64,000 nt of DNA from assembly GCF_048418815.1 (NCBI RefSeq), contig NC_133154.1, forward strand, positions 324,043 through 388,042, read 5' to 3'. Of the stretch, positions 1,601 to 62,340 are shown piece by piece. The position numbers were made by a program, and so were the translations under genes. Below the pieces are notes generated by a model. It was not told where the DNA came from and made no database searches. It saw only the letters and a program-made list of their open reading frames with translations. Numbering within the stretch: the first letter of the stretch is position 1; every line of letters starts with the position of its first letter. Origin of the DNA: Hemitrygon akajei. Taxonomy: Eukaryota.

Positions 1601-1859
1601 TATCCCCTCTGCTCCATTAGGCAAGTTTTAATCATACAGCAGGAGATAGTTGTCCACAGCTATCCATCCAGTCTAGCCTTCATATATTTTCATTAACTCC
1701 TCCCCTATAACACCACCCCTGACCTGTGGCCTCCCATTCTTGTTCTGTATTAAGTGTTGACCTTTACTCCTGACTTGTGGCTCCCTGCCCTCCAGAATAG
1801 CTTAATGGCATTTGGGATAGCTAAGTCCCTATGGCGAGGCAGTATACACTCTGGTTACT

Positions 1860-6310: not shown

Positions 6311-7299
6311 TGAATAATTGAGTTGGTTTTCCCTTTCTTCGAACGCTGACCGACCTCATGGATGTTTTCAGCATTACCTGGTTTGTAGTCCAAACTCGAA
6401 GGTCGACTTTATTTCCCTCCCCTCAGACGCTGACCGACCTGAATGTTGTTCCCACCCACTTCCCTTGGGTTGTTGGAGATCTTGAACAATGAGAACCCAT
6501 TTTTGCCATTAGATGCTGCCGGATTTGATGTGTGTTTCAATCCACTTCACTGGGTTTATTCTAGATCCAACTGGCCAATACTATGTGTCTTATGATACTA
6601 TGACACCTCAGATGCTGTCCTTATACCTGAGTTTGTTCAAGATCACAAGACAAAGGAGCAGAAGTAGGCCATTCGGCCCATCAAGTCTGCTCCGCTACTC
6701 CACCATGAGCTAAACTGTTCTTAGAATTGTAGAATTTATTTCCCTCCATTCACCTTGCACCCATTTCCTTGTGGCCCCTGTTTCCCTCCCTCAGGCACTG
6801 ACTGGCAGTTTAACTATTTGACCTCCTTCTCTGGTGTTATACTAGATATTAAATGTCAACCGTGTTTCCCTACCCTCAGACACTGAGCAAACTTGCATAT
6901 TGCCACACACTTCCCTGGGGTTATTCTAGAACACAATTTGGGGTCTCTTGAGTTATTAAAGCCACACTCACTCAGCAAACTGGGGAGTGTCCCATCAAAG
7001 CCCTGAGTAATGTGGATGCTGTGTTCATGGGCTAACCCCATCCAGGGAAGTGGGGAGTATTCCACCATACTCCTAATCTGTAGACAGGGGATAAGTAATG
7101 TAGCAGATATTGAGTGAATAGTCTAGGCCGGGAGAGAATCACCCTTCGCTGGATCCCCACCCTTGGACCTGCACTTGTTAGTCTAGTTAAGTTGGAGGAT
7201 AGATCACACTCCAGGATGTTGACCAGTGAGTGACTCACCTCCAGTATCAAATGTGGGGAATGTTCCTTAGAAATCTGGTAGCCTATGCTCCCAATCCCT

Positions 7300-9379: not shown

Positions 9380-11400
9380 AAGGAGGGAAATGTGCTTGGA
9401 TGTATCCTCCAAGAATACTTTGCATCAGTACTTACCAAAGTGATGGACATAAAGGATAGGGCGATCAGTATCTAGTGTGTTAATACACTAGGTCATTTGA
9501 GATTAAGAAAGATGTGGTGTTTGATCTCTTGGAAAAAACTGAGGTGGATAAGACCCCAGGAGCAAATGGGATACAACCCTAGTTATTGAGAGAGGCAAGA
9601 GCTGATATTGCTGGGGTCTTGATCAAAATCTTTAGAAGCAGGTGGGAACTCAGAGGATCACTGAATAGTTAATGTTATTCCATTGTTTCACAAGGGAAAT
9701 AGGGATAATCATGGATTATCTGAGTCTCACGTATAACTCAGATTTCCATCTAAACCAGTCCCATCTCTCCACATTTAGCCTATAACCCTTTCCTAATCAT
9801 TTACCCTTTCAAGTGTCTTTTAAATGTTGTTAATGTACCTATTTCTTCCATATACAGACCATTCTCTGGGTTAAAAAGTTGTCCCTCAGGTCCTTATTAA
9901 ACCTCAGTTTAAACCTGTGCCCTCTGATACTTGGGGAAAAGACTGTGCACATTCACCCAGTCTATGCCCCTCAAGGTTTATACTCCTCTGTAAGGTCACC
10001 CCTCGTCCTTCTACACTTCCAACCTGCCCAGGTGTCAGTCCAAAACATCGACCATTTCCTTCCACGGATGTTGCCTGAGCTGCTGAGTTCCTCCACCGTG
10101 AGGTGTGTGTTGCTCCAGTGTTCCAGCATCCGCGGAATCTCTTGTCTCAACCAATGGGATTCCTCTGTGTATAACTGGGATGGTGCTGAAAAACACAGGC
10201 TATTGCTGGCTGTTTTCCAGAGAAATGTTTGTGAAATATTCACATTTGGAAAAGCATAAAGAGTTTTTGAATGGTCAGCATGGCTTTGTACAAAACTTGC
10301 CTGAGTTTTTGGGGGGGGTTTGAAGGTGATTGATGAAGGTGGGGCAGCGAATGTAGCCTACATGTACATTAGAAAGCCAGTTAACAAAGGCCTCTCATGG
10401 GAGGCTTATCCAGAAAGTTAAAATGTATGGGATTCACAGTGAATTAGTTGTCTGGATTCAGAATTGGCTTCTCCATGGAAGACACTGAGTAATATCAATG
10501 GGACTTATTCTACCTGGAGGTCTACCTGGGGTTCCACAGGGAACCAGCAGGTACCTCAGCTGTTTTTGAGAGATAGAAATGGCCTGATGAAAACATGGGT
10601 GGATGGATAGTAAGTCTGCAGATGATACAAGGATTGATGAAGCTGGGGACAGCGTAGAAGTTTGTCAAAGGATACAGCAGGATATACTGTAAATCAGTAG
10701 CAGACACAGGCAGAGAATTGGCAAATAGAGTTTATCTAGGCAAGTGTGAGAGGTTACACTTTGAGGTGTTAAATGTAAAGGGACAGGACAGAGTTAATGG
10801 CAGGAATCTTAACAATACTGATGTACAGAGGAATCTTGCAGTCAAGTCCACCGCTCCCTGAAATTGGCCGAACAGATTAAAAAAAGGGTGTGCGTGTACT
10901 TGCCATTGTTAGTCAAGGCATTGAGTTCAAGAGTCAGGATGTTATGTTGCTGTTTTCTAGAACTCTGGTTAGGCCAATTCTAGAGTATTACATTAATTTC
11001 TGGTTGCCCCATTACAGGAAGGGTGAGGGCCTTTGAAGAGGGTGCAGAAGAGGTTCGCCAGGATGCTGTCTGGAGTGGCAGAGGCTGAAGGGATTCCTGA
11101 TAGAGGTTTATAAGATTATGAGAGGCACAGATAACAGTAGCGAGCTGGTATATTTCCCCTATGGTGGAAATGTTTAATACCAGAGGGCATGCATTTAAGG
11201 TGAGAAGGGAGGAAGTTTGAGGGAAATGTTCAGGGCAAGTTTATTTTGCGTAGGTGCTTAGAATTTTCTGCCAGGGGTGGTGGTAGAGGCAGATACGATG
11301 GAGGTGTTTAAGAGGTTGTTAGACATGGAAAAAGATGGATATCATGTCAGCAGGAGAGACATGATAGACTGAAAGGTCTGTTCCTCTGCTGCACTGTTTG
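9380..11400 (+). mobile_element. Old, highly degenerate CR1-like LINE copy
   Basis: Scattered frameshifted matches to VDKSPGPDG, NVIPLF.KGNRD, GQHGFVQ, and an RGDLTEEYKP-type tail. Confidence 0.5.
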
Positions 11401-12480: not shown

Positions 12481-12784
12481 TGCCCCACCCCCCACCATTC
12501 TGCCTCCCCAACCACCTCCACCTCTCTTCTCCAGAAGCCCTTTTCCTTCCCAACATCCCAGTCAATTACCAAAGGACAAAAAAATTGTTTCCCTACAACC
12601 ACTCCCCACAACATTTTGTCTGAAATATGCCACCTCTGCTTTTTAAACTGTGACACCCCCCCCCCAACTTTTCACTTCCAGTTCTAGCTTTCCCCACAAG
12701 ATGTTTGTCAGTGATGTTTCGTAGAACTGTACAGTGTAGGGACTAACCCATCCATGCCAGTCTCTCCCCACAGTCCTTGCCTGT

Positions 12785-13450
12785 CTCACTAAGACTATAA
12801 GATATAGGAGCAGAATGAGGCAATTTGGCCGCTTGAGTCTGCTCCGCCATTTCATCGCTGATCCAATTTTCCTCTCAGACCCAACCTCTTGCTTTCTCCC
12901 TGTATTCCTTCATGCCCTGACCAATCAAGAATCTATCAACAACCTCTGTCTTAAATATACCTGAAGACTTGGCCTCCACAGCTGCTTGTGGCAGAGTTCC
13001 ACAGTTCACCACTCTCTTGCTAAAAAAATTCCTCCTAATTTCTGTTCTAAAAGGACACCCCTGTGCCCTCTCCTACTATAGGAAACATCCTCTCCACATC
13101 CACTCTATCAAGGCCAAACCATTCCATAAGTTTCAATGAGATCACCTCACATTCTTCTGAATTCAAGGGAATAAATTAAAAGCACTTCATATGATAAACC
13201 ATTCAATCCTGGAATCATTTTCATGAAAATCCATTGAACCCTCTCCAGTTTCAGCACATCCTTTCTAAGATAAGGGGCCCAAAATTGCTCACAATACTCC
13301 AAGTGAGGCCTCATCAGTGCTTTATAAAGTCTCAACAATACATCCTTGCTTTTATATTCTAGTCCTTTTGAAATGAATGTTAACATTACATTTGCCTTCC
13401 TCAGCACAGACTCAACCTGTAAATTAACCTTTAGAGAATCCTGCATAAGG
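12785..13450 (-). mobile_element. CR1-like LINE 3' fragment
   Basis: Minus-strand ORF ...ESVLRKANVMLTFISKGLEYKSKDVLLRLYKALMRPHLEYCEQFWAPYLRKDVLKLERVQ... The plus strand shows the reverse complement of the conserved 3'UTR (ggccgcttgagtctgctccgccatttcatcgctgatc). Confidence 0.8.
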
Positions 13451-13454
13451 ACTC

Positions 13455-14340
13455 CCTAGAACATAAGAACATAAGAAATATGAGCAGGAGTCGGTCATCT
13501 GACCTGTCGAGCCTGCTCTCCCATTCAATAAGATTGTGGCTGATCTGGCCATGGACTCATCCTGCCTTTTCCCCATAACCCTTAACTCCCCTACTATGCA
13601 AAAATCTATCAAACCTTGTCTTAAATATATTTACTGAGGTAGCCTCCACTGCTTCATTGGGCAAAGAATTCCATGGATTCACCACTCTGAGAAAAGCAGT
13701 TCCTCCTCATCACCGTCCTAAATCTACTTCCCTTAATCTCGAGGCTATGTCCCCTAGTTCTAGTCTCACCTATCAGTGGAAACAACTTTCTTGCATCTAT
13801 CTTATCTATCCCTTTCAGAATTTTATATGGTTCTATAAGATCTACTCTCATTCTTCAGAGTCCCTATGAGCAATAGGGATATTGCTGCCCATTCTCCTAA
13901 TCTGTCTAAATCCTTCTGTAGCCCCTCTACTTCCTCAAAACTACCTGCCTCTTCACCTATCTTCATATCATCTGCAATCCTTGCAAAAAAGTCCATCAAT
14001 TCCATCATCCAAGTCATTGACCTATAATGTAAAAAGAATTGATCTCAACACAGACCCCTTTGGAACACAACTAGTCACTGGTAGCCAACAACTCTGTCCC
14101 CTTCCAATCAGCCACTGCTTTATCCATGCTAGAATCTTTCCTCTAATTCCATGGGCTCGTAACTTACTAAGCAGCCTCATGTGTGGGACCTTGTCAAAGG
14201 CCTTCTGAAAATCCGAGTAAATAACATCAACCGATTCTCCTTTATCTATCCTACTTGTACTTCTTCAAAGAATTCCACCAGATTTGTCAGGCAAGATTTT
14301 CCCTTGAGAAGACCATACTGACTACAGCCTATTTTATCAT
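13455..14340 (-). mobile_element. CR1-like LINE 3' fragment
   Basis: Minus-strand ORF MRVDLIEPYKILKGIDKIDARKLFPLIGETRTRGHSLEIKGSRFR plus upstream RT C-terminal residues. Confidence 0.8.
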
Positions 14341-25249: not shown

Positions 25250-27190
25250 GTGCAGGAGATTTAGAACATAGAATAGTACAGCACATTACAGGCCCTTCGG
25301 CCCACAATGTTGTGCCGACCCTCAAACCCTGCCTCCCATATAACACCCCACCTTAAATTCCTCAATATACCTGTCTAGTAGTCTCTTAAACTTCACTAGT
25401 TTATCTGCCTCCACCACTGACTCAGGCAGTGCATTCCACACACCAACCACTCTGAGTGGAAAAACCTCCCTCTAATATGCCCCTTGAACTTCCCTCCCCT
25501 TACCTTAAAGCCATGTCCTCTTGTACTGAGCAGTGGTGCCCTGGGGAAGAGGCACTGGCTGTCCACTCTGTCTATTCCTCTTAATATCTTGTACACCTCT
25601 ATCATGTCTCCTCTCATCCTCCTCCTCTCCAAAGAGTAAAGTCCTAGCTCCCTTAATCTCTGATCATAATCCATACTATCTAAACCAGGCAGCATCCTGG
25701 TAAATCTCCTCTGTACCCTTTCCAATGCTTCCACATCCTTCCTATAGTGAGGCGACCAGAACTGGACACAGTACTCCAAGTGTGGCCTAACTAGACTTTC
25801 TAACTAGTCTTTCTGAATAAGCCTACCATATGGAACCTTGTCAAATGCCTTACTAAAATCCATGTAGATCACATCCACTGCACTACCCTCATCTATATGC
25901 CTGGTTACCCCCTCAAAGAACTCTATCAGGCTTGTTAGGCACGATCTGCCCTTCACAAAGCCATGCTGACTGTCCCTGATCAGACCATGATTCTCTAAAT
26001 GCCCATAGACCCTATCTCTAAGAATCTTTTCCAACAGCTTTCCCACCACAGACATAAGGCTCACTGGTCTATAATTACCTGGACTATCCCTACTACCTTT
26101 TTTGAACAAGGGGACAACATTCGCCTCCCTCCAATCCTCCGGTACCATTCCCATGGACAACGAGGACATAAGGATCCTAGCCAGAGGTTCAGCAATCTCT
26201 TCCCTTGCCTCGTGGAGCAGCCTGGGGAATATTTCGTCAGGCCCCAGGGACTTATCCATCCTAATATATTTTAACAACGCCAACACCTCCTCTCCCTTAA
26301 TATCAACATGCTCCAGAACATCAACCTCACTCGTATTGTCCTCACCATCATCAAGTTCCCTCTCAGTGGTGAATACTGAAGAAAAGTATTCATTAAGGAC
26401 CTTGCTCACTTCCACAGCCTCCAGGCACATCTTCCCACTTGTATCTCTAATCGGTCCTACCTTCACTCCTGTCATCCTTTTGTTCTTCACATAATTGAAG
26501 AATGCCTTGAGGTTTTCCTTTACCCTACTCGCTAAGGCCTTATCATGCCCCCTTCTTGCTCTTCTCAGCCCATTCTTAAGCTCCTTTCTTGCTACCCTAT
26601 ATTCCTCGATAGCCCCATCTGATCCTTGCTTCCTAAACCTCATGTATGCTGCCTTCTTCCACCTGACTGGATTTTCCACTTCACTTGTCACCTATGGTTC
26701 CTTCACCCTACTATTCTTTATCTTCCTCACCGGGACAAATTTATCCCTAACATCCTGCAAGAGATCCTTAAACATCGACCCCATGTCCATAGTACATTTC
26801 CCTGCAAAAACATCATCCCAATTCACACCCACAAGTTCTAGCCTTATAGCCTCATAATTTGCCCTTCCCCAATTAAAAATTTTCCTGTCCTCTCTGGTTC
26901 TATCCTTTTCCATGATAATGCTAAAGGTTAGGGAGTGGTGATCACTGTCCCCCAGATGCTCACCCACTGACAGATCTGTGACCTGACCTGGTTCGTTGCC
27001 TAATACTAGATCTAGTATGGCATTCCCCCTAGTCAGCCTGTCAACATACTGTGACAGGAATCCATTCTGGACACACTTAACAAACTCTGCCCCATCTAAA
27101 CCCTTGGAACTAATCAAGTGCCAATCAATATTAGGGAAGTTAAAGTCACCCATGATAACAACCCTGTTATTTTTGCACCTTTCCAAAATC
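25250..27190 (-). mobile_element. CR1-like LINE covering the endonuclease C-terminus, RT and tail
   Basis: Minus-strand ORFs MEYCVQFWSPHYRKDVEALERVQRRFTRMLPGLDSMDYDQRLRELGLYSLERRRMRGDMIEVYKILRGIDRV, VDKSLGPDEIFPRLL...EDWREANVVPLFKKGSRDSPGNYRPVSLMSVVGKLLEKILRDRVY...SQHGFVKGRSCLTSLIEFFE...[20 protein letters not shown], and GDSDHHSLTFSIIMEKD. Confidence 0.85.
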
Positions 27191-38129: not shown

Positions 38130-38530
38130 GTGCCCTTGTCTCTCACTCTCCCCAGCCATCTAATCCTTCTCTGTCCCTCCCCACACCCTAATCCCACTCT
38201 GTCCCTCCCCTCTCCCTGTCTATCTAATCCCTCTCTGTATTCCCCCCCGTTGCTCCCTTCTCCCTGTCTCCTCCCCCTCTGTTTATTCCCTCTCCATCCC
38301 TGTCTAATCCCACTCCATCCCTCCCCTCTCCCTGCTAATCCTTCTCCGTTCCCTCCCCTCACTCACTGTCTAATCTCTCTGTCCCTTCCCCTCTCCCTTT
38401 GTCTAATCTCTCTCCGTCCATCCCCCTTCCTGTCTAATATCACTCCGTCTGATCCCTCTCCGACCCTCCCCACTCCCTGTTTAATCCCTCTCGGTTCCCT
38501 CTCCACCCCCTCTGTCTAATCACTCTCCAT
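38130..38530. repeat. CT-rich minisatellite with a unit of about 40 bp (...tccctcccctctccctgtctaatccctctc...)
   Basis: Direct reading. It lies in MVP intron 4. Confidence 0.8.
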
Positions 38531-38644
38531 CCCTCCCCTCTCCCCTCCTCCACCACCTCCTCTCCCTCCACCCCCCACCCCCCCATCTCTCCTTCCCTTC
38601 CAGACCCTGTCTTTGCTGATAAAATGACTCTCAAAAGCCCAAGA

Positions 38645-38775
38645 GATTCTGCAGATGCGAGAAACACAGAGCAATGTGTACAAAATGCTGCAGGGCTCAG
38701 CAGGTCAGGCCGTGTCTATGGAGAAGAATAAACTGTCGATGTCTCAGACAGAGACCCTTCATCAGGACTGAAGGG
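38645..38775. repeat. Partial copy (left arm and loop) of the hairpin MITE-like family
   Basis: ...gtacaaaatgctgcagggctcagcaggtcaggccgtgtctatggagaagaataaactgtcgatgtctcagacagagacccttcatcaggac... Confidence 0.5.
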
Positions 38776-39194
38776 GCAGAAGGCAGAATAAGAGCAGTAC
38801 GGCCACTATCACCACATTGTCCTGCAGACCGAGCAAAGAAATGCCACTTTACACAGAAATGGTCTAGATGGATACAGATATTGGCCAATAGGCAACCTCA
38901 CATCAACCACCAATCACACTATGTAATAAAGGTATTAATAGCCAATAGAATCTCCATCTTAAATGCCAGTAATACTTCAGAATTGTAAAGTAACCATCCA
39001 AAATTAATTACTACTACATTCCTGATTTTACCTCAGTCTGCCAAATGGCTCCCACCCTGCCATTGGGTAAAGGTCCCCTCTATCTCTCTTACCTCATCTA
39101 ATCTGCCAGGCAGCATACCAGAGCAAAGTAGGACACCTGTCTAAGTGGTGTCTTTAACAACCTCTTCATCACTGTCAGCAAAACTAAAGAGCTA

Positions 39195-41565
39195 ATTGTT
39201 GATTTCAGAAAGACTATTCTGGATTTAGTGTTATGTAATGAACAGGATTTGATAAGCGATCTTGCAGTAAGGGAGCCATTAGGAGGTAGTGATCATAATA
39301 TGATAAGTTTTTATCTGCAATTTGAGAAGGATAAGGGCAGCTCGGAGGTGTCAGTGTTACAGATGAACAGGGGAAACTATGGAGCCATGAGGGAGGAGCT
39401 GGCCAAAGTTGACTGGACGGATAGCCTAGCAGAAAAGACAGTGGAACAGCAATGGCAGGTATTCTTGGGAATAATGCACAAGGTGCAAAATCAGTTCATC
39501 CCTCAGAGAAGGAAGGATTCAAAGGGGGGAAAGGGGCCACAGTGGTTGACAAAGGAAGTCAGAGATTGCATAGCATTAAAAAAAAAAGGAAGTATGACAG
39601 AGCTAAGGTGAGTGGGAGGACAGATGATTGGGAAGTTTTTAAGGAACAACAGAACTTAACAATACGGGGAGAAAAAATGAGGTACGAACGCAAGCTAGCT
39701 AGGAATATAAAGGAAGATAGCAAAAGCTTTTTTAGGTATGTGAAGAGAAAGAAGATAGTTAAGAACAATGTTGGGCCCTTGAAGAATGAATTGGGTGAAA
39801 TTGTTATGGGAAACAGAAATTCTTATGGAGAAGAATTTAATAAGTACTTTAGATCTGTCTTCACTAGGGAAGACGCAAGCAATCTCCCAGATGTATGGAT
39901 GGGCCAAGGACATAGGGTAACAGAGGAAATGAAACAGATTGACATTAGGAAGGAAACGGTGATGAGTAGACTGATGGGACTGAAGGCTGACAAATCCCCA
40001 GGTCCAGATGGTCTGCATCCTAGGGTACTAAAGGAGGTGGCCCTGGAAATTGCGGATGCATTGGTAATCATTTTCCAATGTTCCTTAGATTCAGGATCAG
40101 TTCCTGAGGATTGGAGAATGGCTAATGTTATCCCACTTTTTAAGAAAGGAGGGAGGGAGAAAACAGAGAACTATCGACCTGTCAGCCTGACATCGGTGGT
40201 GGGGAAGATGCTAGAGTCCATTATTAAGGATGAAATAGTGGCATATCTAGATAGCAGTGATAGGATTGGGCCGAGCCAGCATGGATTTACCAAGGGTAAA
40301 TCATGCTTGACTAATCTGTTGGAGTTTTTCGAGGATGTAACCAGGAAGTTAGATGGGGGAGATCCAGTGGATGTAGTGTACCTCGATTTTTAGAAGGCAT
40401 TTAATAAGGTCCCACATAGGAGATTGGTGGGTAAAATCAAAGCTCAGGGCATCGGGGGGAAGACATTGACATGGATAGAAAACTGATTGGCAGATAGAAA
40501 GCAAAGGGTAGCGGTGAATGGGTGTTTCTCAGAATGGCAGGTGGTGACTAGTGGGGTGCCACAGGGCTTGGTATTGGGACCACAGCTGTTTGCAATTTAC
40601 ATAAATGATTTGGATGAAGGCATTGAAAATAACATCAGCAAATTTGCTGATGATACTAAGCTGGGTGGCAGTGTGACATGTGATGAGGATGGTAGGAGAA
40701 TTCAGGGTGACTTGGGATAGGCTGGGTGAGTGGGCAGATACTTGGCAGATGACGTTTAATGTGAATAAGTGTGAGGTTATCCACTTTGGGAGTAAGAACA
40801 GGAAGGCAGATTATTATCTGAACGGTGTAGAGTTGGGTAAAGGAGAAATACAAAGAGATCTCGGAGTCCTTGTTCATCAGTCACTGAAGGTGAATGAGCA
40901 AGTGCAGCAGGCAGTGAAGAAGGCTAATGGAATGTTGGCCTTTATTACAAAGGGAATTGAGTACAAGAGCAAGGAAATCCTCTTGCATTTGTACAGGGCC
41001 CTGGTGAGACCACACCTGGAGTATTGTGTACAGTTTTGGTCTCCAGGGTTAAGGAAGGACATCCTGGCTGTTGAGGAAGTGCAGCATAGATTCACGAGGT
41101 TAATTCCTGGGATGTTTGGACTGTCTTACGCAGAGAGGTTAGAGAGACTGGGCTTGTACACGCTGGAATTAAGGAGATTGAGAGGGGATCTGATTGAAAC
41201 ATATAAGATTATTAAGGGATTGGACAAGATAGAGGCAGGAAATATGTTCCAGATGCTGAGAGAGTCCAGTACCAGAGGGCATGGTTTGAGAATAAGGGGT
41301 AGGTCATTTAGGACAGAGTTAAGGAAAAACTTCTTCTCCCAGAGAGTTGTGGGGGTCTGGAATGCACTGCCTCGGAAGGCAGTGGAGGCCAATTCTCTGG
41401 ATGCTTTCAAGAAGGAGCTAGATAGGTATCTTATGGATAGGGGAATCAAGGGATATGGGGACAAGGCAGGAACCGGGTATTGATAGTAGTTGATCAGCCA
41501 TGATCTCAAAATGATGGTGCAGGCTCGAAGGGCCGAATGGTCTACTTCTGCACCTATTGTCTAAA
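39195..41565 (+). mobile_element. Young CR1-like LINE, 5'-truncated (endonuclease C-terminus, RT, tail and 3'UTR), in MVP intron 4. It is the inverted partner of the copy at 55675-58400.
   Basis: A 313-aa ORF and a 267-aa ORF separated by a single stop: ...GGSDHNMISFYLQFEKDKG...VDKSPGPDGLHPRVLKEVALEIADAL...[95 protein letters not shown], then [27 protein letters not shown]...RLRGDLIETYKIIKGLDKIEAGNMFQMLRESSTRGHGLRIRGRSFR... Confidence 0.9.
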
Positions 41566-41639
41566 GAGGGAGGCTGAACCTGCACAAGCCTTAATTGGGG
41601 GAAATGGGTGGTGGAAAGAGTCAGCATCTTAAATCTCTG

Positions 41640-42425
41640 AGCAGTAACCTGCTCAGTCTCGAGTGACCTGTCCTGGGCCTAACTCACTGACAGAATTACA
41701 AGGAAGAAGGAAGGTGAACGTGACCCAGTCTACAATGGGGGATCTGGCATGGAAAGACTCAATAGCTTTAATTCCCAGGGTGTTAACATCTCGGATGATC
41801 TAACTGGGCTCAGCTCACAAGGATGGCAGGCCAGTGTCTTTACTGTCTTAGTAGGTTCGGTTTGTCACCAACACTTTAACAAACTTCTACAGATCTTCTG
41901 TTGGAAAAGTCCTTATTGGTCACATCATGGTCTGAGATGGCAATTCATAAATGTAAGAAGCTGCAGAAAGTAGTACACCAGCCCAGTACATCTCAGACTA
42001 ATCCCTCCCTGTCATCAGGAGTACCTACAGGAAGGGCTGAACAACTTCCACCATTGGAGATCCCTACTATCTTCTCACAGCTCCCATCGGGCAGGAGGTA
42101 CAGAAGCCTGAAGTCCCACACCACCAGATTCAGGAACAGCGACTTCTCTTCAACCATTCGGTTCTTGAACCAACTGGCACAATTAGAAGCACCATCTCAG
42201 TACAGTAACACTGTGACCATTTTGTATCCATTGCAGTACTTGCTTTTGTTCTAATTGCATTCTCTCTTGTAAAATTATGTGTAATTTCTGCTTTTTGCAC
42301 TTTGGTAAATTATTATTCTGTACTCTATTAGTTAAATCTGCACACTGCTAAGTGTGTTTTTAGATATTGCTGCTATAACGGAAGAATTTCCCACTCAGGA
42401 TCAATAAAGTACTTATTATTAATTT
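41640..42425 (+). mobile_element. LINE family B 3' fragment with 3'UTR
   Basis: Encodes ...IFSQLPSGRRYRSLKSHTTRFRNSDFSSTIRFLNQ. The 3'UTR ends ...caataaagtacttattattaatttttt. Confidence 0.7.
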
Positions 42426-42429
42426 TTTC

Positions 42430-42900
42430 TCTGTGAATGTTAAGTATCTGTTAACTGCTGCAAGGTCATTTTCCATTCGCTCTCTGCTCTCCCACCCTAT
42501 TTCACCCCCTCGCCTCATCCCTCCCTCCTCTCGTATACTGCCCCCTCCCCTCCATCTAATCTCTCACTGCCTCCTTTCTCTCTTGCACCTGTCCAATCTC
42601 TGTCCCTTCCTCCCTCCCACCACGTCTCCTTCCCCTCTCTCTCATGCGTGTCTAATCTCTGTCTCCTTCCCCTCTCACACGCCCATCCAATCTCCCTCTG
42701 TCCCCTTCCTCACCATCTCCTTCCTCTCTCTCGCACCTGTCCAAACTCTCTCCATCCCCTCCCTCCCTGCGACCCCCCCCATCTCCATCCTCTCTCGCAC
42801 CTGTCCAAACTCTCTCTGTCCCCTCCCTCCCTGCGAACCCCCCCCCCCCATCTCCATCCTCTCTCTCGTGTCTGTCCGATTTCTCTCTGTCCCCTCCCTC
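42430..42900. repeat. CT-rich tandem repeat with a unit of about 63 bp (...tctcgcacctgtccaaactctctccatcccctccctccctgcgacccccccatctccatcctc...)
   Basis: Direct reading. It generates several overlapping low-complexity ORFs on both strands. Confidence 0.85.
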
Positions 42901-42939: not shown

Positions 42940-44450
42940 AGAGTCCCAGAGGATGTGCAAATCTCAATTATAACACCCCAGTTTAAAGGGGGAGAATTAT
43001 AAAAGGCTGGTAATGATCAGCTGGGTAGCCAGAACTCAGTAACTGGTTGAATTTTAGAGCCCATTATCAAGGGTGAAATTTTGGAGCATTTTGATAAAAT
43101 AGGAAGATGCCAGCACAATCTCACCGGACCAATCTGGTGAAATTTTTTTGTATAGGTAATGAGCAGGAGAGCCAAAGGAGAGTCACTGGATGTTGTTTAC
43201 TTGTATTTTCAAAAGGCCTTTGACAAAGTGGCGCACATCTGGCTACCAAACAAGCTGAGAGCCCATGGTATTAGAGGCAAGGTGCTAACATGGAGGCATT
43301 GGCTGACTGCGAGTGGGGAAAAAGGGGGGCCTTTTCAGGATGGCTGCCAGTGACTAGTTAAGTTTCACAGGGGGTCATTACTGGGTCTACAACTTTTTTA
43401 ATGTAGATGTTAATGATTCCAGTGAAGGATCAATGGCATTGTGCATAATACACAGAAAGTGGAGAAATGGGGAGCATTGCAGCACAATTTGGGAGTGTGG
43501 GCAAAGAGATGGCAACTGGAACACAGTCTGGGGAAGTGTAGGGTTACAGATTGTGGCAGGAATAAAAGGCATAATAACACACAAAATGCTGGAGGAACTC
43601 AACAGGTCAAGAAGCAACTATGGAGAAGTTGATGTCACTTCTGATGAAGGGTCTCAACCTAAAATGTCAACCCATAGATGCTACCTGACCTGCTGAGTTC
43701 CTCCAGCATTTTGTGTGTGTTGCTCTAGATTTCAGTACCTGCAGAATCCCAGGTTAATAAAATGCAAAGACATTTTTTTACATGAGAAGCAAATTCAGAA
43801 ATGGGAGGTGCTAAAATCTGCTTGGGTATCTCAGTTCAGGTTTCCCTCAAGGTTGACTTGCACATCAATTTGGTCTAAAGATGACAAGTGGAAGTTATTT
43901 AGAGATATATTGTGGAACAGGCCCTTCCAGCCTAACCAGCTGAGCCACTCCATTTAACCCCAGCCTAATCACAGGACAATTTAGATTCTAAATTGGATCG
44001 ATTAGGCTTAAACTCACTGGAATTTAGAAGATTGAGGGGGGATCTTTTTGAAACATATAAAATTCTAAAGGGATTGGACAGGCTAGATGCAGGAAGATTG
44101 TTTCCGATGTCGGGGAAGTCCAGAACAAGGGGTCACAGTTTAAGGATAAAGGGGAAGCCTTTTAGGACCGAGATGAGGAAAATCTTCTTCACACAGAGAG
44201 TGGTGAATCTGTGGAATTCTCTGCCACAGGACACAGTTGAGGCTGGTTCATTGGCTATATTTAAGAGGAAGTTAGATATGGCCCTTGTGGCTAAAGGGAT
44301 CGGGGGTATGGAGAGAAAGCAGGTACAGGGTTCTGAGTTGGATGATCAGCCATGATCATACTGAATGGCGGTGCAGGCTCAAAGGGCCGAATGGCCTACT
44401 CCACCTATTTTCTATGTTTCTATGACAATTTACATAGACCAATTAACCAA
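42940..44450 (+). mobile_element. Degenerate CR1-like LINE (RT, tail and 3'UTR)
   Basis: Matches to VVYLYFQKAFDKVAHIWLPNKLRAHGIRGKVLTW and LEFRRLRGDLFETYKILKGLDRLDAGRLFPMSGKSRTRGHSLRIKGKPFRTEMRKIFFTQRVVNLWNSLPQD. The 3'UTR ends ...gatcagccatgatcatactgaatggcggtgcaggctcaaagggccgaatggcctactcc. Confidence 0.75.
43556..43722. mobile_element. Complete copy of a hairpin-forming MITE-like element: inverted arms of about 45 bp around a loop of about 45 bp
   Basis: Left arm cacaaaatgctggaggaactcaacaggtcaagaagcaactatggagaag. The reverse complement of the right arm is cacaaaatgctggaggaactcagcaggtcaggtagcatctatggg. Related sequences occur at 54440-54600, 38645-38775, 62235-62340 and 10055-10110. Confidence 0.55.
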
Positions 44451-44590: not shown

Positions 44591-44639
44591 ATTTAAAGAG
44601 GATGAATACTCCCTCGAATCCCACCATTCACAGGGTGTC

Positions 44640-45290
44640 CCCTAACCTTGTACACTGAGGTCCCTCTGTCCCTCGACACTCCCCACCATTCACAGCATGT
44701 GTCTTACCCTCATACACAGAGGTTCCCCTGCCCCTTGACACTCCTCACCATTCACGGCATGTGTCTTACCCTCATACACAGAGGTTCCCCTGCCCCTTGA
44801 CACTCCTCACCATTCACGGCATGTGTCTTACCCTTATACACAGAGGTTCCCCTGCCCCTTGACACTCCTCACCATTCACGGCATGTGTCTTACCCTTATA
44901 CACAGAGGTTCCCCTGTCCCTTGACACTCCTCACCATTCACAGCATGTGTCTTACCCTTATACACAGAGGTTCCCCTGTCCCTTGACACTCCTCACCATT
45001 CACAGCATGTGTCTTACCCTTATACACAGAGGTTCCCCTGTCCCTTGACACTCCCCACCATTCACAGCATGTGTCTTACCCTCATACACAGAGGTTCCCC
45101 TGTCCCTTGACACTCCCCACCATTCACAGCATGTGTCTTACCTTTATACACAGAGGTTCCCCTGTCCCTTGACACTCCCCACCATTCACAGCATGTGTCT
45201 TACCCTTATACACAGAGGTTCCCCTGTCCCTTGACACTCCCCACCATTCACAGCATGTGTCTTACCCTCATACACAGAGGTTTATTTCCT
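44640..45290. repeat. Minisatellite: unit of about 59-60 bp (cattcacagcatgtgtcttacccttatacacagaggttcccctgtcccttgacactcctcac) repeated about 11 times, starting 110 bp 3' of MVP exon 4 in intron 4
   Basis: Direct reading. On the MVP (minus) strand each unit carries donor-like gtgagg and gtaaga strings. Confidence 0.9.
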
Positions 45291-45402
45291 CTAATCGCCA
45301 CGACCCCACGCCCCCCCAATTGGCTCCAGGACTGACTCAATCACCCATCCCTCTTGACTGGGGTTTCCAGGAGAGGGTGAATGAGGAGGGGTCTGCACTC
45401 AC

Positions 45403-45534
45403 CTGTCACCCGATTACGACCCTCTCTATCTTTAGTCTCCTTCCGTGCTCTCAGACGAATGGCTTGGTTGTGATGAATCACTGTGGCCTCGATGGTCTGT
45501 ATAATTTCCACCTCCTTCCGGGGGATGTAGGTTC
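45403..45534 (-). CDS. MVP: MVP exon 4: (G)[43 protein letters not shown](G)
   Basis: Acceptor aaacag|GAACC, donor GACAG|gtgagt. Matches human [44 protein letters not shown]. Confidence 0.85.
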
Positions 45535-45599
45535 CTGTTTCAGAGGTGGGTGTATGGTGAGAGGCAAAACATAACCAGTGTCAATGGAACAGAGAACAT

Positions 45600-54240: not shown

Positions 54241-54439
54241 TGCTCCCCGTCAACCTGCAACATTCTACTTCAACGTCTTCTGTTCCAGAGAAAGCTTGGG
54301 GAAGGGCAGCAGACTCGAGCAGTTCCCTCCCCTGTCCAACACCCACTGCCCTCCCTCTGCGACCAACCTTCTCCTCTCCCACACGCAAATTCCCTGTTTG
54401 TTCTTGGCTGCCAAAGCAACCATCTTACCAAACAGTAAA

Positions 54440-54600
54440 CACATGAGATTGTGCAGGAAACGCTGGAGATGCTCAGCAGGTGAGGCAGTGTCATCAGTCG
54501 GTTTAGTCCTGATGAAGGGTCTCATCCGGAAACATCGACTGTTTATCCCGTTCCATCTCTGGAGCCAGACTTGCTGAGTTTCTCCAGCGATTTGTGTGTG
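54440..54600. mobile_element. Complete but divergent copy of the hairpin MITE-like family, directly next to the MVP CpG island
   Basis: ...cgctggagatgctcagcaggtgaggcagtgtcatcagtcggtttagtcctgatgaagggtctcatccggaaacatcgactgtttatcccgttccatctctggagccagacttgctgagtttctccagcgatttgtgtg... Confidence 0.5.
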
Positions 54601-55060
54601 TGTTGCGGAACGGGAGGCCCGGTGTCAGCTTCCTCTTCCTGTTTGCATCCCGACCGAGTTGTGGGAATGATGAGGGAGACGCAGAGTGGATGGGAAATTG
54701 TCAGGAAACGGGGGGTCCCGTTGGCTGTTTGTCCACTGTCGTCCTGTCTTCAGCTGCTTCGCTGATCTTAGGGTGCGATGGGATCTTACCGTAACCCCGC
54801 ACCGGCAAGAAAAACGAGTCACCGAGGAATCCACTCGTAGGTTTGCGAACTCACTGCCCCGGTGCCTGCGAGTCCAGTCACTCCCACTTCACATCACGTC
54901 CCGCCCCGCATCTGAGAAATTTGACGCAAATTAGGCCTCACCCCTCCTCCTCCTCCGGAGTCCGACACTGTCAATTTTAACGCTCCGGGTGCTAGCCTGA
55001 TCCAAACGAAACTCAGGCTGCGGCGGGTCGGGGGCCACCTCCCAAACTACCCCACGGCTG
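54590..55060 (-). promoter_or_regulatory. MVP: CpG island 1.9-2.3 kb upstream of the MVP start codon. It is the likely MVP promoter and non-coding 5' exon.
   Basis: CpG dinucleotides are markedly enriched in this stretch (gcggaacgggaggcccggtg...cgcaccggcaag...gctgcggcgggtcgggggcc) and the region is not derived from a repeat. An acceptor just 5' of the ATG implies an upstream non-coding exon. Human MVP also has a non-coding first exon. Confidence 0.45.
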
Positions 55061-55674: not shown

Positions 55675-58400
55675 TAGGTGCAGAAGTAGACCATTTGGCC
55701 CTTTGAGCCTGCACCGCCATTCTGAGATCATGGCTGATCATCTACTATCAATACCCGGTTCCTGCCTTGTCCCCATATCCCTTGGTTCTCCTATCCATAA
55801 GATACCTATCTAGCTCCTTCTTGAAAGCATCCAGAGAATTGGCCTCCACTACCTTCCGAGGCAGTGCATTCCAGACCCCCACAACTCTCTGGGAGAAGTT
55901 TTTCTTTAACTCTGTCCTAAATGACCTACCCCTTATTCTCAAACCATGCCCCCTGGTACTGGACTCTCCCAGCATCTGGAACATATTTCCTGCCTCTATC
56001 TTGTCCAATCCCTTAATAATCTTATATGTTGCAATCAGATCCCCTCTCAATCTCCTTAATCCCAACGTGTACAAGCCCAGTCTCTCTAACCTCTCTGCGT
56101 AAGACAGTCCGGACATCCCAAGAATTAACCTCGTGAATCTACGCTGCACTTAACCCTGGAGGCCAAAACTGTACACAATACTCCAGGTGTGGTCTCACCA
56201 GGGCCCTGTACAAGTGCAAAAGAATTTCCTTGCTCTTGTACTCAATTCCCTTTGTAATAAAGGCCAACATTCCATTAGCCTTCTTCACTGCCTGCTGCAC
56301 TTGCTCATTCACCTTCAGTGACTGATGAACAAGTACTCCTAGATCTCTTTGTATTTCTCCTTTACCTAACTCTACACCGTTCAGATAATAATCTGTCTTC
56401 CTGTTCTTACTCCCAAAGTGGATAACCTCATACTTATTCACATTAAACGTCATCTGCCAAGTATCTGCCCACTCACCCAGCCTATCCAAGTCACCCTGAA
56501 TTCTCCTAACATGTCACACTGCCACCCAGCTTAGCATCATCAGCAAACTTGCTGTTATTCTCAATGCCCTCATCTAAATCATTTATGTAAATCGTAAACA
56601 GCTGTGGTCCCAATACCGAGCCCTGTGGCACCCCACTAGTCACCACCTGCCATTCCGAGAAACACCCATTCACCGCTACCCTTTGCTTTCTATCTGCCAA
56701 TCAGTTTTCTATCCATGTCAATGTCTTCCCCCCGATGCCCTGAGCTTTGATTTTACCCACCAATCTCCTATGTGGGACCTTATCAAATGCCTTTTGAAAA
56801 TCGAGGTACACTACATCCACTGGATCTCCCTTGTCTAACTTCCTGGTTACATCCTTGAAAAACTCCAATAGATTAGTCAAGCATGATTTGCCCTTGGTAA
56901 ATCCATGCTGGCTCGGCCCAATCCTATCACTGCTATCTAGATATGCCACTATTTCGTCTTTAATAATGGACTCTAGCATCTTCCCCACTACTGATGTTAG
57001 GCTGACAGGACGATAGTTCTCTGTTTTCTCCCTCCCTCCTTTCTTAAAAAGTGGAATAACATTAGCCATTCTCCAATCCTCAGGAACTGATCCTGAATCT
57101 AAGGAACATTGAAAAATGATTACCAATGCATCCGCAATTTCCGGGGCCATCTCCTTTAGTACCCTAGGATGCAGACCATCTGGACCTGGGGATTTGTCAG
57201 CCTTCAGTCCCATCAGTCTTCTCATCACCGTTTCCTTCCGAATGTCAATCTGTTTCATTTCCTCTGTTACCCTATGTCCTTGGCCCATCCATACATCTGG
57301 GAGATTGCTTGCGTCTTCTCTAATGAAGACAGATCTAAAGTACTTACTAAATTCTTCTGCCATTTCTGTTTCCCATAACAATTTCACCCAATTCATTCTT
57401 CAAGGGCCCAACATTGTTCTTAACTATCTTCTTTCTCTTCACGTAACTAAAAAAGCTTTTGCTATCCTCCTTTATATTCCTGGCTAGCTTGCGTTCGTAT
57501 CTCATTTTTTCTCCCCGTATTGCCTTTTTACTTAAGTTTTGTTGTTCCTTAAAAACTTCCCAATCATCTGTCCTCCCACTCACCTTAGCTCTGTCATACT
57601 TCCTTTTTTTAAAAAAAAATGCTATGCAATCTCTGACTTCCTTTGTCAACCACTGCAGCCCCTTTCCCCCCTTTGAATCCTTCCTTCTCCGGGGGATGAA
57701 CTGATTTTGCACCTTGTGCATAATTCCCAAGAATACCTGCCATTGCTGTTCCACTGTCTTTTCTGCTAGGATATCCTTCCATTTAACTTTGGCCAGCTCC
57801 TCCCTCATGGCTCCATAGTCTCCTTTGTTCAACTGCAACAATGACACCTCCGATCTGCCCTTATCCTTCTCAAATTGCAGATAAAAACTTATCATATTAT
57901 GGTCACTACCTCCTAATGGCTCCTTTACTTCAAGATCACTTATCAAATCCTGTTCATTACACAAGACTAAATCCAGAATAGCCTTGTCCCTGGTCGGCTC
58001 TCATACAAGCTGTTCCAAGAATGCATCCCGTAGGCACTCTACAAACTCACTATCCTTGGGTCCAGCACCAACCTGATTCTCCAATTCACCTGCATGTTGA
58101 AATCCCCCATAACTACTGTGACATTACCTTTGCCACATGCCAATGTTAACTCCCTATTCAACTTGCACCCAATATCCATGCTACTGTTTGGTGGCCTGTA
58201 GACAACACCCATTAGGGTCATTTTGCCCTTATTGTTCCTCAGTTCTATCCACACAGACTCCACTTCTCCTGATCCTATGTCCCCCCTTGCAAAGGACTGA
58301 ATCTCATTCCTCACCAACAGGGCCACCCCACCCCCTCTGCCCACATTTCTGTCCCTACGATAGCATGTATACCCTTGTACATTCATTCCACAATGGTGGA
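55675..58400 (-). mobile_element. Young CR1-like LINE, near-complete ORF2 (EN N-terminus through tail and 3'UTR) with a few frameshifts, between CDIPT and MVP. It is the inverted partner of 39195-41565.
   Basis: Minus-strand ORFs: endonuclease MNVQGYTCYRRDRNVGRGGGVALLVRNEIQSF...MGVVYRPPNSSMDIG and ...GGSDHNMISFYLQFEKDKGRSEVSLLQLNKGDYG...; RT ...VDKSPGPDGLHPRVLKEMAPEIADAL...[126 protein letters not shown] and ...[15 protein letters not shown]...; tail RLRGDLIATYKIIKGLDKIEAGNMFQMLGESSTRGHGLRIRGRSFR. Confidence 0.9.
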
Positions 58401-62075: not shown

Positions 62076-62234
62076 CAGCATGTGAGACAGGCAGATGGGG
62101 AAGTGTGTGACACAGAGAGGGAATGTGAGAGACAGGAGAGTGTGTGTCACAGAGAGAGAGGGAGATGGGGGACAGTGTGTGACACAGAGCGAGGGAGTGT
62201 GTGAGATGGGAATCAGACAAGGGGAGGTAAACAC

Positions 62235-62340
62235 AAACAACATGTACAAACAAGCTGGATGAATTCAGCAGGTTGGGCAGCATCCGTTGAAATGAGCAGT
62301 CAACGTTTCGGGTTGGGACCCTTTGTCAGGACAAGGGGAG
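62235..62340. repeat. Partial copy of the hairpin MITE-like family
   Basis: ...caagctggatgaattcagcaggttgggcagcatccgttgaaatgagcagtcaacgtttcgggttgggaccctttgtcaggac... Confidence 0.45.

What the first reader, a model, noticed from the sequence alone, without database searches (positions are those of the whole stretch)
43556..43722. Hairpin-forming MITE-like repeat family with at least five copies, one next to the MVP promoter
The copy at 43556-43722 is an almost perfect inverted repeat. Its arms are about 45 bp (cacaaaatgctggaggaactcagcaggtcaggtagcatctatgg... and its reverse complement) around a loop of about 45 bp. It would fold into a long stem-loop as RNA or form a cruciform in DNA. Related complete or partial copies are at 54440-54600 (abutting the MVP CpG island), 38645-38775 (MVP intron 4), 62235-62340 (CDIPT intron) and 10055-10110. 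It does not resemble the LINE or tRNA-SINE sequences. A short palindromic family scattered in introns and promoters is the kind of element from which miRNA hairpins and regulatory sites are often derived.
Basis: seen in the sequence. Interest (0 to 1): 0.5.

Follow-up and report, generated by a model that had tools for sequence, protein, structure and literature searches.

The report
Decayed Penelope retroelement ends with hammerhead ribozyme
The hairpin repeat is real, but it is not a MITE: it is the worn-out 3' end of a Penelope-like retrotransposon of sharks and rays that carries a minimal hammerhead-ribozyme motif, and the hairpin comes from this element's known habit of inserting as two copies head to head, so it is ordinary.

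Summary
Arms 43577-43623 and 43672-43718 are 47 nt long and 91% complementary, and all five listed copies belong to one family. The interpretation does not hold.

- **What the unit is.** Read on the right strand, the ~136-nt unit is CAGUC|CUGAUGA|A|GGGUCUCGGCCC|GAAAC|GUC|GACUG followed by a ~95-nt tail. This matches the helix-III-less "min-HHR" described for Penelope-like elements (PLEs).
- **Link to PLEs.** In devil ray, stingray, skate and two sharks, the unit starts 378-582 nt after the GIY-YIG motif of a PLE ORF, on the same strand, in 6 of 6 cases.
- **Other PLE hallmarks.** The 3' ends fall into two classes ~30 nt apart, like the PLE "tail". Head-to-head copies have different junctions, like the inverted 5'-truncated copy typical of PLE insertions.
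- **Hairpin is not the family trait.** Three of the five window copies have a single arm.
- **State of the window copies.** All have mutated ribozyme cores. Three are shared with Mobula hypostoma and evolve no slower than their flanks.
- **Negative searches.** There is no miRNA or hammerhead match in Rfam.

Verdict: ordinary relics of a known class of retroelement. Interest is low.

The parts
43547..43634 (-). Inverted, 5'-truncated arm of the 43.6-kb head-to-head insertion. Read on the minus strand it runs from about the GAAAC/GUC region of the unit out to the GU-rich end and a diverged tail. It lacks the CUGAUGA box.
   Evidence: nhmmer hit 43629-43577 (-), consensus positions 48-100. Inverted repeat. 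Junction read from the sequence.
43635..43751 (+). The fuller copy of the 43.6-kb insertion: a decayed min-HHR (43635-43674: cuuCUGAUGAaGGGUCUCAACCUaAAAuGUCaac, where G12->A and C15.2->U disable the core), a GU-rich stem-loop and the ~30-nt long tail ending ...cctgcagaatccca.
   Evidence: nhmmer E 6e-21, consensus 4-133. Aligned in A1. Long-type 3' end.
43542..43546 (.). Possible 5-bp target-site duplication GGTTA, left copy. The right copy is at 43752-43756. The target is AT-rich (ggttaataaaatg).
   Evidence: Read from the sequence. The same GGTTA flanks the Mobula orthologue. A 5-bp match can be chance, so this is weak.
43752..43756 (.). Possible target-site duplication GGTTA, right copy.
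54440..54500 (-). Inverted 5'-truncated arm of the 54.5-kb head-to-head insertion. It keeps the outer tail end (gagattgtgcag) and has an internal deletion. It reaches the AAAC-CGACUG region of the unit.
   Evidence: nhmmer 54493-54454 (-). Inverted repeat 54458-54486 / 54564-54592, 79% complementary. The Mobula orthologue has a longer arm.
54503..54606 (+). The fuller copy of the 54.5-kb insertion. The HHR relic at 54503-54542 (agucCUGAUGAaGGGUCUCAUCCGGAAACAUCgacug) has intact boxes but a disrupted helix II. It has the short-type 3' end (...gtgtgtgtgttgc), so the tail is present on one side of the insertion only.
   Evidence: nhmmer E 4e-17, consensus 4-103. A1. 3' end.
38640..38795 (-). Single-arm copy, 84% identical to the consensus over 136 nt, in the sense orientation of the MVP pre-mRNA. 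The HHR relic at 38732-38771 has GAAAC->GAGAC and GUC->AUC. It has the long tail and about 20 nt of CU-rich upstream UTR. It lies inside a 4.2-kb segment that is absent from Mobula.
   Evidence: nhmmer E 3e-24 and blastn 83.8%/136..
62229..62340 (-). Single-arm copy in the CDIPT-side region. The HHR relic at 62296-62335 has CUGAUGA->CUGACAA (G8->A) and GUC->GUU.
   Evidence: nhmmer E 2e-12. A1.
10015..10144 (+). Single-arm copy about 1.65 kb downstream of the last MVP coding exon. The CUGAUGA box is lost, GAAAC is now AAAAC, and it has the long tail. A CU-rich stretch upstream resembles the PLE 3' UTR.
   Evidence: nhmmer E 3e-16, consensus 19-136. Orthologue in Mobula at L001 54307-54431.
6325..6549 (+). 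Three weak, adjacent matches to the central part of the unit (…cgaaggtcgactttatttccctc…agacgctgaccgacctg…). Probably an older or different subfamily. Membership is uncertain.
   Evidence: nhmmer E 0.0024, 0.97 and 1.9. Sequence.

Best explanation
[quoted passage not shown] What survives is the element's 3' terminal (pseudo-LTR) segment:
- a minimal type-I hammerhead ribozyme motif with no helix III (helix I CAGUC/GACUG; CUGAUGA; one unpaired A; helix II GGGU-CUCG-GCCC; GAAAC; GUC cleavage triplet);
- then about 95 nt that ends at one of two sites ~30 nt apart.

**Inferred mechanism, from published PLE biology.** The PLE RT/GIY-YIG protein nicks AT-rich DNA. It starts reverse transcription at internal sites near the 3' end of the element RNA, which gives the short and long "tail" ends. 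It usually stops early, which gives 5' truncation. When both DNA strands are cut and extended, two truncated copies end up head to head with tails outward. This produces the 47-bp-arm palindrome at 43.6 kb and the weaker one at 54.5 kb.

**The ribozyme.** In active elements it would cut the element RNA after GUC and would work only as a dimer or with protein help. In all five window copies its core or helices are mutated.

**Consequence here.** The copies do nothing specific in this locus, other than placing a long hairpin in an MVP intron.

**Shown and inferred.** Shown: family membership, the motif, its position after PLE ORFs, the two classes of 3' ends, the different junctions, orthology with Mobula and the lack of constraint. 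Inferred: the transposition mechanism and ribozyme activity.
For: - **Motif in the consensus and in the freshest copies.** A strict min-HHR descriptor finds 3 hits in 254 kb, all in Mobula units (two shown to follow a PLE ORF; the third is the copy at the end of L001), and 0 in 100 shuffles.
- **The helices hold across 21 copies from 5 species.** 78% of cells are paired against 15-46% when the partner is slid. The covariation score is 0.318 against 0.205, reached by 0 of 500 shuffles. The first two helix-I pairs change C:G/U:A (rays, sharks) to U:A/G:C (skate). Helix II shows U:G, C:G and U:A.
- **Position after the PLE ORF.** For 6 of 6 GIY-YIG motifs found (L001 62067, L002 10421, L004 11415, L005 10820 and 2151(-), L007 10877), a unit starts 378-582 nt downstream on the same strand. 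At the observed density of about 7e-5 units per bp per strand (37 hits in 254,264 bp), the chance is about 0.04 per case, or about 1e-8 for all six (my calculation).
- **The ORFs are PLE-type.** They carry RYIDDC, the DKG motif, HTH_animal and GIY-YIG.
- **Textbook architecture in L006 (Chiloscyllium).** A near full-length PLE is preceded by an inverted 5'-truncated copy and followed by the unit, as drawn in PMC8557442.
- **Two classes of 3' ends.** They end at consensus positions ~98-109 or ~127-136, with unrelated sequence beyond. This fits the 30-40-bp PLE tail and the two RT start sites ~85-92 nt after the HHR cut in the Anolis element (PMC11167929). Here the long end lies 96-99 nt after GUC.
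- **Different junctions.** Four head-to-head copies have four different junctions.
Against: - The window holds no PLE coding remnant (tblastn). The link to PLEs rests on related loci from other species and on a sister subfamily.
- Rfam does not call a hammerhead even in the freshest PLE-attached copy.
- None of the window copies passes the strict descriptor.
- No partial-tandem pLTR was seen.
- Most copies begin within about 50 nt upstream of the HHR. A dedicated short non-autonomous derivative is therefore not excluded.
- One PLE endonuclease fragment (L003) has no unit after it, apparently because it is cut off.
- The loci were selected through PLE proteins, so copy density in them is biased.
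- Repbase and Dfam could not be queried.
Confidence: 0.85

Rival explanations
1. The copies come from a short, non-autonomous, HHR-bearing element (a SINE-like "solo retrozyme" of about 140-160 nt). It borrows the PLE 3' end and is mobilised in trans by PLE proteins, rather than arising by truncation of autonomous PLE copies.
For: - The four window copies that keep the HHR region begin within about 25 nt upstream of helix I, and no similarity to the Mobula PLE 3' UTR is found further upstream.
- Non-LTR retrozymes are now argued to be non-autonomous PLE derivatives and occur in a chondrichthyan (bioRxiv 10.64898/2026.07.22.740005).
- Copy density is high, about one per 11-13 kb in the MVP region.
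Against: - No tandem arrangement of units is seen in the window or in the loci, although tandem units define retrozymes.
- 5' ends appear variable: copy 10015-10144 seems to extend about 50 nt into a CU-rich UTR-like stretch, copy 38.7k extends about 22 nt, and the Mobula copy L005 3315 extends into the UTR.
- The UTR is low-complexity and subfamily-specific, so a failure to align is weak evidence.
- The autonomous partner of the window's own subfamily was not recovered.
Confidence: 0.1
2. A MITE: a non-autonomous DNA transposon with terminal inverted repeats, moved by cut-and-paste.
For: Two copies have long inverted arms. A possible short duplication, GGTTA, flanks the 43.6-kb copy.
Against: - Three of five window copies and most copies in the other loci have a single arm.
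- The arm has a polarity. It contains an asymmetric HHR, always follows a GIY-YIG endonuclease ORF (RT upstream where the copy extends that far) in the same orientation, and has two alternative 3' ends.
- Palindrome junctions differ between copies.
Confidence: 0.02
3. The 43.6-kb hairpin, whatever its origin, has been exapted as a miRNA or endo-siRNA precursor or as a regulatory element of MVP.
For: - It forms a very stable 47-bp stem in an intron.
- It has been retained since before the split from Mobula.
- The arms are slightly less diverged than the flanks: element 9.2% against 13.8% for flanks.
Against: - That difference is not significant (p = 0.12), and the other two orthologous copies evolve faster than their flanks.
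- The Mobula orthologue has a 12-nt deletion in one arm.
- No Rfam miRNA family reaches its threshold. mir-982 scores 23 bits against a gathering score of 70, and a plastid hairpin scores higher, which shows these are generic-hairpin matches.
- The stem is far longer than a typical pre-miRNA.
Confidence: 0.03

Closest known systems
Minimal hammerhead ribozymes (min-HHR) in the pseudo-LTRs of metazoan Penelope-like elements, such as Xena, Poseidon and Neptune of fishes and Cercyon of Schistosoma (Cervera & de la Peña 2014, PMC4209133)
   Same: - CUGANGA and GAAA boxes and a GUC triplet.
- No helix III, with complementary 15.2/16.2.
- An unpaired nucleotide between A9 and 10.1, and a G10.1-C11.1 pair.
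- A short helix I.
- Thousands of mostly solitary copies, and occasional pairs on opposite strands.
- Location next to the PLE ORF.
   Different: - Helix II here is the canonical 4 bp with a tetraloop, not the 6-8 bp reported for many PLE min-HHRs.
- This lineage is in elasmobranchs, which that study did not list.
- Activity is untested.
- The window copies are mutated.
PAc, the Poseidon element of Anolis carolinensis (Frangieh et al. 2024, PMC11167929)
   Same: - The HHR sits ~90-100 nt upstream of the site where copies end (RT start sites 85-92 nt after the cut in PAc; 96-99 nt here for the long end).
- There are two alternative ends ~30 nt apart, the "tail".
- The targets are AT-rich.
- Both DNA strands are cleaved and extended, which would give head-to-head copies.
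   Different: - In PAc the ORF starts inside the HHR and RT starts in an AC-rich stem-loop.
- Here the reading frame from the AUG of CUGAUGA closes after 21 codons in the consensus, and the terminal stem-loop is GU-rich.
- Here the HHR was seen only downstream of the ORF, because no tandem copy was recovered.
PLE insertion architecture: partial tandems plus an adjacent inverted 5'-truncated copy (Craig et al. 2021, PMC8557442; Evgen'ev & Arkhipova 2005)
   Same: Inverted 5'-truncated copy abutting the main copy (L006 in full size; 43.6 kb and 54.5 kb in miniature). High degree of 5' truncation. Tail present on one side only (54.5 kb).
   Different: In the window both partners are truncated to about 50-120 nt, so the result looks like a small hairpin element rather than a flanked retrotransposon.
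Non-LTR retrozymes and Sm-alpha-type HHR repeats (Cervera & de la Peña 2020; Li, Clavereau & Pollet 2026 preprint)
   Same: Short non-coding repeats with type-I HHRs related to PLE pseudo-LTRs. Solo "monomers" are scattered in introns and intergenic DNA.
   Different: Retrozymes are defined by tandem units that give circular RNAs, and they usually have a small helix III. No tandem units were found here.
MITEs
   Same: Short, non-coding, dispersed, and sometimes able to fold into a hairpin.
   Different: A MITE has inverted termini in every copy, a fixed target-site duplication and a DNA-transposase partner. Here the inverted arm is optional and of variable extent, and the partner is a retroelement.

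Membership tests
PLE-type minimal hammerhead ribozyme (min-HHR) | Conserved core: C3-U4-G5-A6-N7-G8-A9, G12-A13-A14, and cleavage triplet N-U-H | tested here: met
   Met in the family consensus and in 12 of 21 aligned copies with 0 core mismatches. In the window only the 54.5k copy keeps all boxes. The others carry G12->A, A13->G or G8->A, or have lost box 1.
PLE-type minimal hammerhead ribozyme (min-HHR) | No helix III; positions 15.2/16.2 complementary so that two motifs can form a joint helix III | tested here: met
   GAAAC-GUC is directly adjacent, and ACGU is self-complementary.
PLE-type minimal hammerhead ribozyme (min-HHR) | One unpaired nucleotide between A9 and 10.1, and a G10.1-C11.1 closing pair | tested here: met
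   Column 14 is A in 20 of 21 copies. The pair at columns 15-26 is G:C in 11 and G:U in 6 of the 20 distinct copies counted.
PLE-type minimal hammerhead ribozyme (min-HHR) | Helices I and II supported by pairing and covariation | tested here: met
   78% of cells paired against <=46% for slid controls. Four pairs show changes on both sides. The covariation score is reached by 0 of 500 shuffles. Caveat: the sequences are related and only 9 pairs are tested.
PLE-type minimal hammerhead ribozyme (min-HHR) | Self-cleavage after the triplet (as a dimer or with protein) | not testable with these tools
   Needs in vitro transcription of dimeric constructs.
Rfam hammerhead families (e.g. Hammerhead_1) | Covariance-model score at or above the gathering threshold | tested here: not met
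   No hammerhead hit in the window at gathering score. None at E<=10 on 43500-43800, 54400-54650 or the fresh copy L005 11330-11560. From my own knowledge, not checked here, these models expect a helix III.
Penelope-like element (terminal fragment) | Single ORF with telomerase-like RT (DKG, YIDD) followed by a C-terminal GIY-YIG endonuclease, next to the repeat | tested here: met
   Met in related loci: L005 9881-11269, L006 9439-13100, L007, L001, L004. Not met in the window itself, which has no PLE coding remnant.
Penelope-like element (terminal fragment) | HHR located in the pseudo-LTR / UTR flanking the ORF | tested here: met
   For 6 of 6 GIY-YIG motifs a unit starts 378-582 nt downstream on the same strand. 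One endonuclease fragment (L003) is cut off before that point.
Penelope-like element (terminal fragment) | Adjacent inverted 5'-truncated copy forming inverted repeats | tested here: met
   Window 43.6k and 54.5k; L005 11731-11943; L006 5464-5648 and 8943-9230 / 9230-13500.
Penelope-like element (terminal fragment) | Optional 30-40-bp tail at an end of the insertion | tested here: met
   The 3' ends fall into two classes ~30 nt apart. The 54.5k insertion has the extension on one arm only.
Penelope-like element (terminal fragment) | Partial tandem copies giving direct pseudo-LTRs | tested here: not met
   No direct tandem was seen in the ~254 kb examined. The sample is small and no intact element was recovered.
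MITE | Terminal inverted repeats in every copy, uniform length, fixed target-site duplication | tested here: not met
   Three of five window copies have a single arm. Arm lengths and junctions vary. Only one weak 5-bp candidate duplication was found.
miRNA precursor | Match to a known family, or a hairpin conserved under constraint | tested here: not met
   No Rfam miRNA at gathering score. The orthologous hairpin has a 12-nt arm deletion, and divergence is not below that of the flanks. Small-RNA reads are not testable here.
Non-LTR retrozyme | Tandem HHR-bearing units that yield circular RNAs | tested here: not met
   All copies are solo or head to head, and none is head to tail. Circular RNAs are not testable.

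The most novel reading that the evidence does not exclude
The PLE lineage with this min-HHR core is present in both sharks and batoids. Its extreme head-to-head truncated insertions may have seeded elasmobranch genomes with very many long intronic hairpins, and some of these could feed small-RNA pathways or give rise to lineage-specific miRNAs. Alternatively, the ~140-nt unit may be a dedicated PLE-dependent non-autonomous "solo ribozyme SINE" that has not been described in cartilaginous fishes.
Probability: 0.1. Interest if true: 0.4.

Novelty: new member of a known kind. Interest (0 to 1): 0.17.

Why it matters
Mainly as a correction. A hairpin repeat that looks like a MITE or a miRNA source is a retroelement stump, and its palindrome is a by-product of how Penelope-like elements insert.

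It also shows that the helix-III-less hammerhead of PLEs is present, with compensatory changes, in sharks, skates and rays. Standard RNA-family scans (Rfam) miss it.

For annotation, these stumps and the PLE ORF fragments next to them end up inside predicted genes in ray and shark assemblies.

Nothing here points to an effect on MVP.

Tried and rejected
- **Rfam.** A gathering-score scan of the whole window found nothing. E-value scans of two window copies and one fresh copy gave only chance hits: generic hairpins (Plastid-psbJ-4, mir-982), snoRNA fragments and PrrB_RsmZ.
- **Public collection scans.** Exact 26-mer scans of viral and metagenome contigs gave 0 hits.
- **Literature.** A search for the repeat sequence itself gave 0 papers. 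A search for MITE + shark + hairpin gave nothing relevant.
- **CR1-like LINE at 39.2-41.5 kb.** I tested whether it was the partner of the repeat. Its ORFs are APE/RT LINE-type, not PLE, and it lies about 2 kb from the hairpin.
- **Skate protein P0153 (RVT_1 + endonuclease).** It looked like proof of a PLE RT-EN fusion, but it is a chimera of a LINE RT fragment and a PLE EN fragment, so I discarded it as evidence.
- **RNA cofold of two HHR monomers.** It gave a trivial full duplex and says nothing about the double-hammerhead fold.
- **Hypanus MVP look-up.** The protein was not on record.
- **Empty-site comparison.** It failed. Three copies are shared with Mobula, and the fourth lies in a 4.2-kb indel with ambiguous low-complexity borders.
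Full report
**Observation.** The copy at 43.6 kb is a genuine near-perfect inverted repeat. Arms 43577-43623 and 43672-43718 are 47 nt long, 91% complementary and 48 nt apart. As RNA the region folds at -81.8 kcal/mol, z = -11.3 against shuffles. blastn with the copy and nhmmer with a ~136-nt consensus recover:
- 38640-38774 (-), E 3e-24
- 43635-43750 (+), E 6e-21
- 54503-54602 (+), E 4e-17
- 10031-10144 (+), E 3e-16
- 62234-62332 (-), E 2e-12
- inverted partial arms at 43577-43629 and 54454-54493

Only two of the five copies are palindromic, so the hairpin is not the family's defining property. MVP lies on the minus strand. The 43.6k and 38.7k copies share one intron. The 54.5k copy abuts a CpG-rich stretch.

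**Anatomy.** When all copies are oriented the same way, the unit reads ...CCUUCAGUC CUGAUGA A GGGUCUCGGCCC GAAAC GUC GACUG UUUAUUCC...CCAUAGAUGCUGCCUGACCUGCUGAGUUCCUCCAGCAUUUUGUGUGUGUUGCUCUGGAUUUCCAGCAUCUGCAGAAUCUC. The first 40 nt have every element of a type-I hammerhead ribozyme except helix III:
- helix I, CAGUC/GACUG
- the CUGAUGA box
- one unpaired A
- a 4-bp helix II with a tetraloop
- GAAA
- C and G at positions 15.2/16.2
- the GUC cleavage triplet

This is the "min-HHR" that Cervera and de la Peña defined for Penelope-like elements. That motif has no helix III, palindromic 15.2-16.2, an extra nucleotide between 9 and 10.1, a G10.1-C11.1 pair and a 4-5-bp helix I. Its copies are mostly solitary, with occasional pairs on opposite strands (PMC4209133). 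Differences among the window copies at CCCGAAACGTCGAC fit CpG decay.

**Source organism and orthology.** The MVP protein assembled from the window is 96% identical to Mobula hypostoma MVP and 91% to Hypanus sabinus MVP. Non-coding DNA is 82-91% identical to the M. hypostoma locus L001. The window is therefore from a related myliobatiform ray, not from that species. The 43.6k, 54.5k and 10.0k copies are present at orthologous positions in Mobula, with their palindromes. The 38.7k copy lies in a 4.2-kb segment (38431-42691) with no Mobula counterpart.

**Link to Penelope-like elements.** A motif search found a PLE-type GIY-YIG endonuclease ORF at the end of L001 (GVIYCIRCSRCGLLYIGETRRRLGDRFAEHL). 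About 280 nt of CU-rich UTR follow, and then the unit with an intact HHR. Homologues of that ORF led to loci in Leucoraja erinacea, Hypanus sabinus, Heptranchias perlo, Chiloscyllium punctatum and a second Mobula site.
- For all six GIY-YIG motifs detected, a unit starts 378-582 nt downstream on the same strand.
- At the observed unit density this has a chance of about 1e-8 (my calculation).
- The ORFs carry PLE hallmarks: DKG, RYIDDC, HTH_animal, a cysteine motif and GIY-YIG.
- In L006 a near full-length PLE is preceded by an inverted 5'-truncated copy and followed by the unit. This is the arrangement drawn for PLEs in PMC8557442.
- One endonuclease fragment (L003) is cut off before the unit.
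- One annotated skate protein that seemed to join RT and EN is a LINE/PLE chimera, and I did not use it.

**Is the ribozyme motif more than chance?** A strict descriptor gives 3 hits in 254 kb, all in Mobula units, and none in 100 shuffles. In a gapless alignment of 21 HHR segments from five species, 78% of helix cells pair, against 15-46% when partners are slid. The covariation score exceeds all 500 shuffles. The first two helix-I pairs switch from C:G/U:A (rays, sharks) to U:A/G:C (skate). The inner helix-II pair is U:G, C:G or U:A. The core boxes are shared by sharks, skates and rays.

Rfam does not recognise the motif, even in the freshest copy. Membership in the curated hammerhead families therefore fails, while the published min-HHR criteria are met. 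No window copy passes the strict descriptor. Each has a core or helix mutation, so they are probably inactive.

**3' ends and palindromes.** Copies end either just after ...CCAGCAUUUUGUGUGU(UGC) or about 30 nt further on at ...CUGCAGAAUCUC, with unrelated sequence beyond. This matches the optional 30-40-bp PLE tail. It also matches the two internal RT start sites ~85-92 nt after the HHR cut in the Anolis element, whose protein cleaves and extends both DNA strands (PMC11167929). Here the long end lies 96-99 nt after GUC.

The four head-to-head copies examined have inverted arms that stop at different consensus positions (~33, ~29, ~25 and ~5). They therefore arose independently, with tails outward and truncated 5' ends meeting in the middle. 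The 54.5k insertion carries the tail on one arm only. A 5-bp GGTTA flanks the 43.6k insertion in both species, in an AT-rich target. That is weak evidence on its own.

**Function in this locus.** Divergence from Mobula, element against flanks, is:
- 43.6k copy: 9.2% vs 13.8% (p = 0.12)
- 10.0k copy: 15.2% vs 7.9%
- 54.5k copy: 21.6% vs 13.7%

The Mobula 43.6k orthologue has lost 12 nt of one arm. There is no sign of constraint, no miRNA-family match and no PLE coding sequence in the window. The copies are best read as neutral relics. The only sense-oriented copy in the MVP pre-mRNA (38.7k) has a dead core.

**Verdict.** The family and the hairpin are real. The MITE/miRNA reading is not supported. 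The element is a truncated Penelope-like retroelement terminus with a minimal hammerhead motif, and the hairpin is a known by-product of PLE insertion. Two points stay open: whether the short copies come from a dedicated non-autonomous derivative, and whether the motif cleaves.

Noticed in passing
window 44620-45282: A 62-bp minisatellite, 10.7 copies at 96% identity, lies just upstream of the MVP exon at 45398-45535. The Mobula hypostoma orthologue (L001 20834-20938) has a single unit, so the array expanded in the window's lineage.
   Followed up: partly
window 38431-42691: A 4.2-kb segment is absent from the Mobula orthologue. It holds the 38.7k repeat copy and a CR1-like LINE (ORFs 39228-41483, + strand; APE remnant, RT, CR1-type C-terminus). 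Its borders lie in CT-rich low-complexity repeats (42624-42865), so insertion here and deletion in Mobula could not be told apart.
   Followed up: partly
window 454-1620, 3795-4982, 25804-26691, 56701-57396: Several LINE ORF fragments have RVT_1 hits. The two at 0.4-5 kb also hit Pfam ALKBH8_N, which covers a 42-residue stretch just after the RT in the 3795-4982 ORF. The window is rich in LINE relics.
   Followed up: no
window 6325-6549: Three adjacent weak matches to the middle of the unit (cgaaggtcgactttatttcc…agacgctgaccgacctg), arranged almost in tandem. This is possibly an older PLE subfamily or an internally duplicated relic.
   Followed up: no
L006 7783-8925 and 13426-13689 (Chiloscyllium punctatum): The whole PLE complex (inverted stump + element + unit) sits inside a minisatellite with unit ~gtccacactgggcc, which continues on both sides. 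This fits the reported PLE insertion bias for micro- and minisatellites (PMC8557442).
   Followed up: no
Proteins P0138, P0153, P0185, P0204, P0214, P0290, P0297: Gene models in NCBI assemblies of Hypanus, Mobula, Heptranchias, Leucoraja and Amblyraja contain PLE ORF fragments. Their names include "receptor-transporting protein 3-like", "ATP synthase F(0) subunit C3-like isoform X1", "divergent protein kinase domain 1C isoform X2", "chitinase domain-containing protein 1 isoform X1", "mucin-2 isoform X2" and "nicotinamide riboside kinase 1 isoform X1". These are probably annotation chimeras.
   Followed up: no
L005 7609-9252 (Mobula hypostoma): A 547-aa C2H2 zinc-finger array ORF lies immediately upstream of a 5'-truncated PLE copy. 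It is unrelated to the element.
   Followed up: no
window 52701 / L001 9961-10003: The MVP start codon sits 13 nt after a splice-acceptor-like ccaccag. The 5' UTR therefore lies in an upstream exon, and the true promoter position relative to the 54.5k copy remains unverified.
   Followed up: partly
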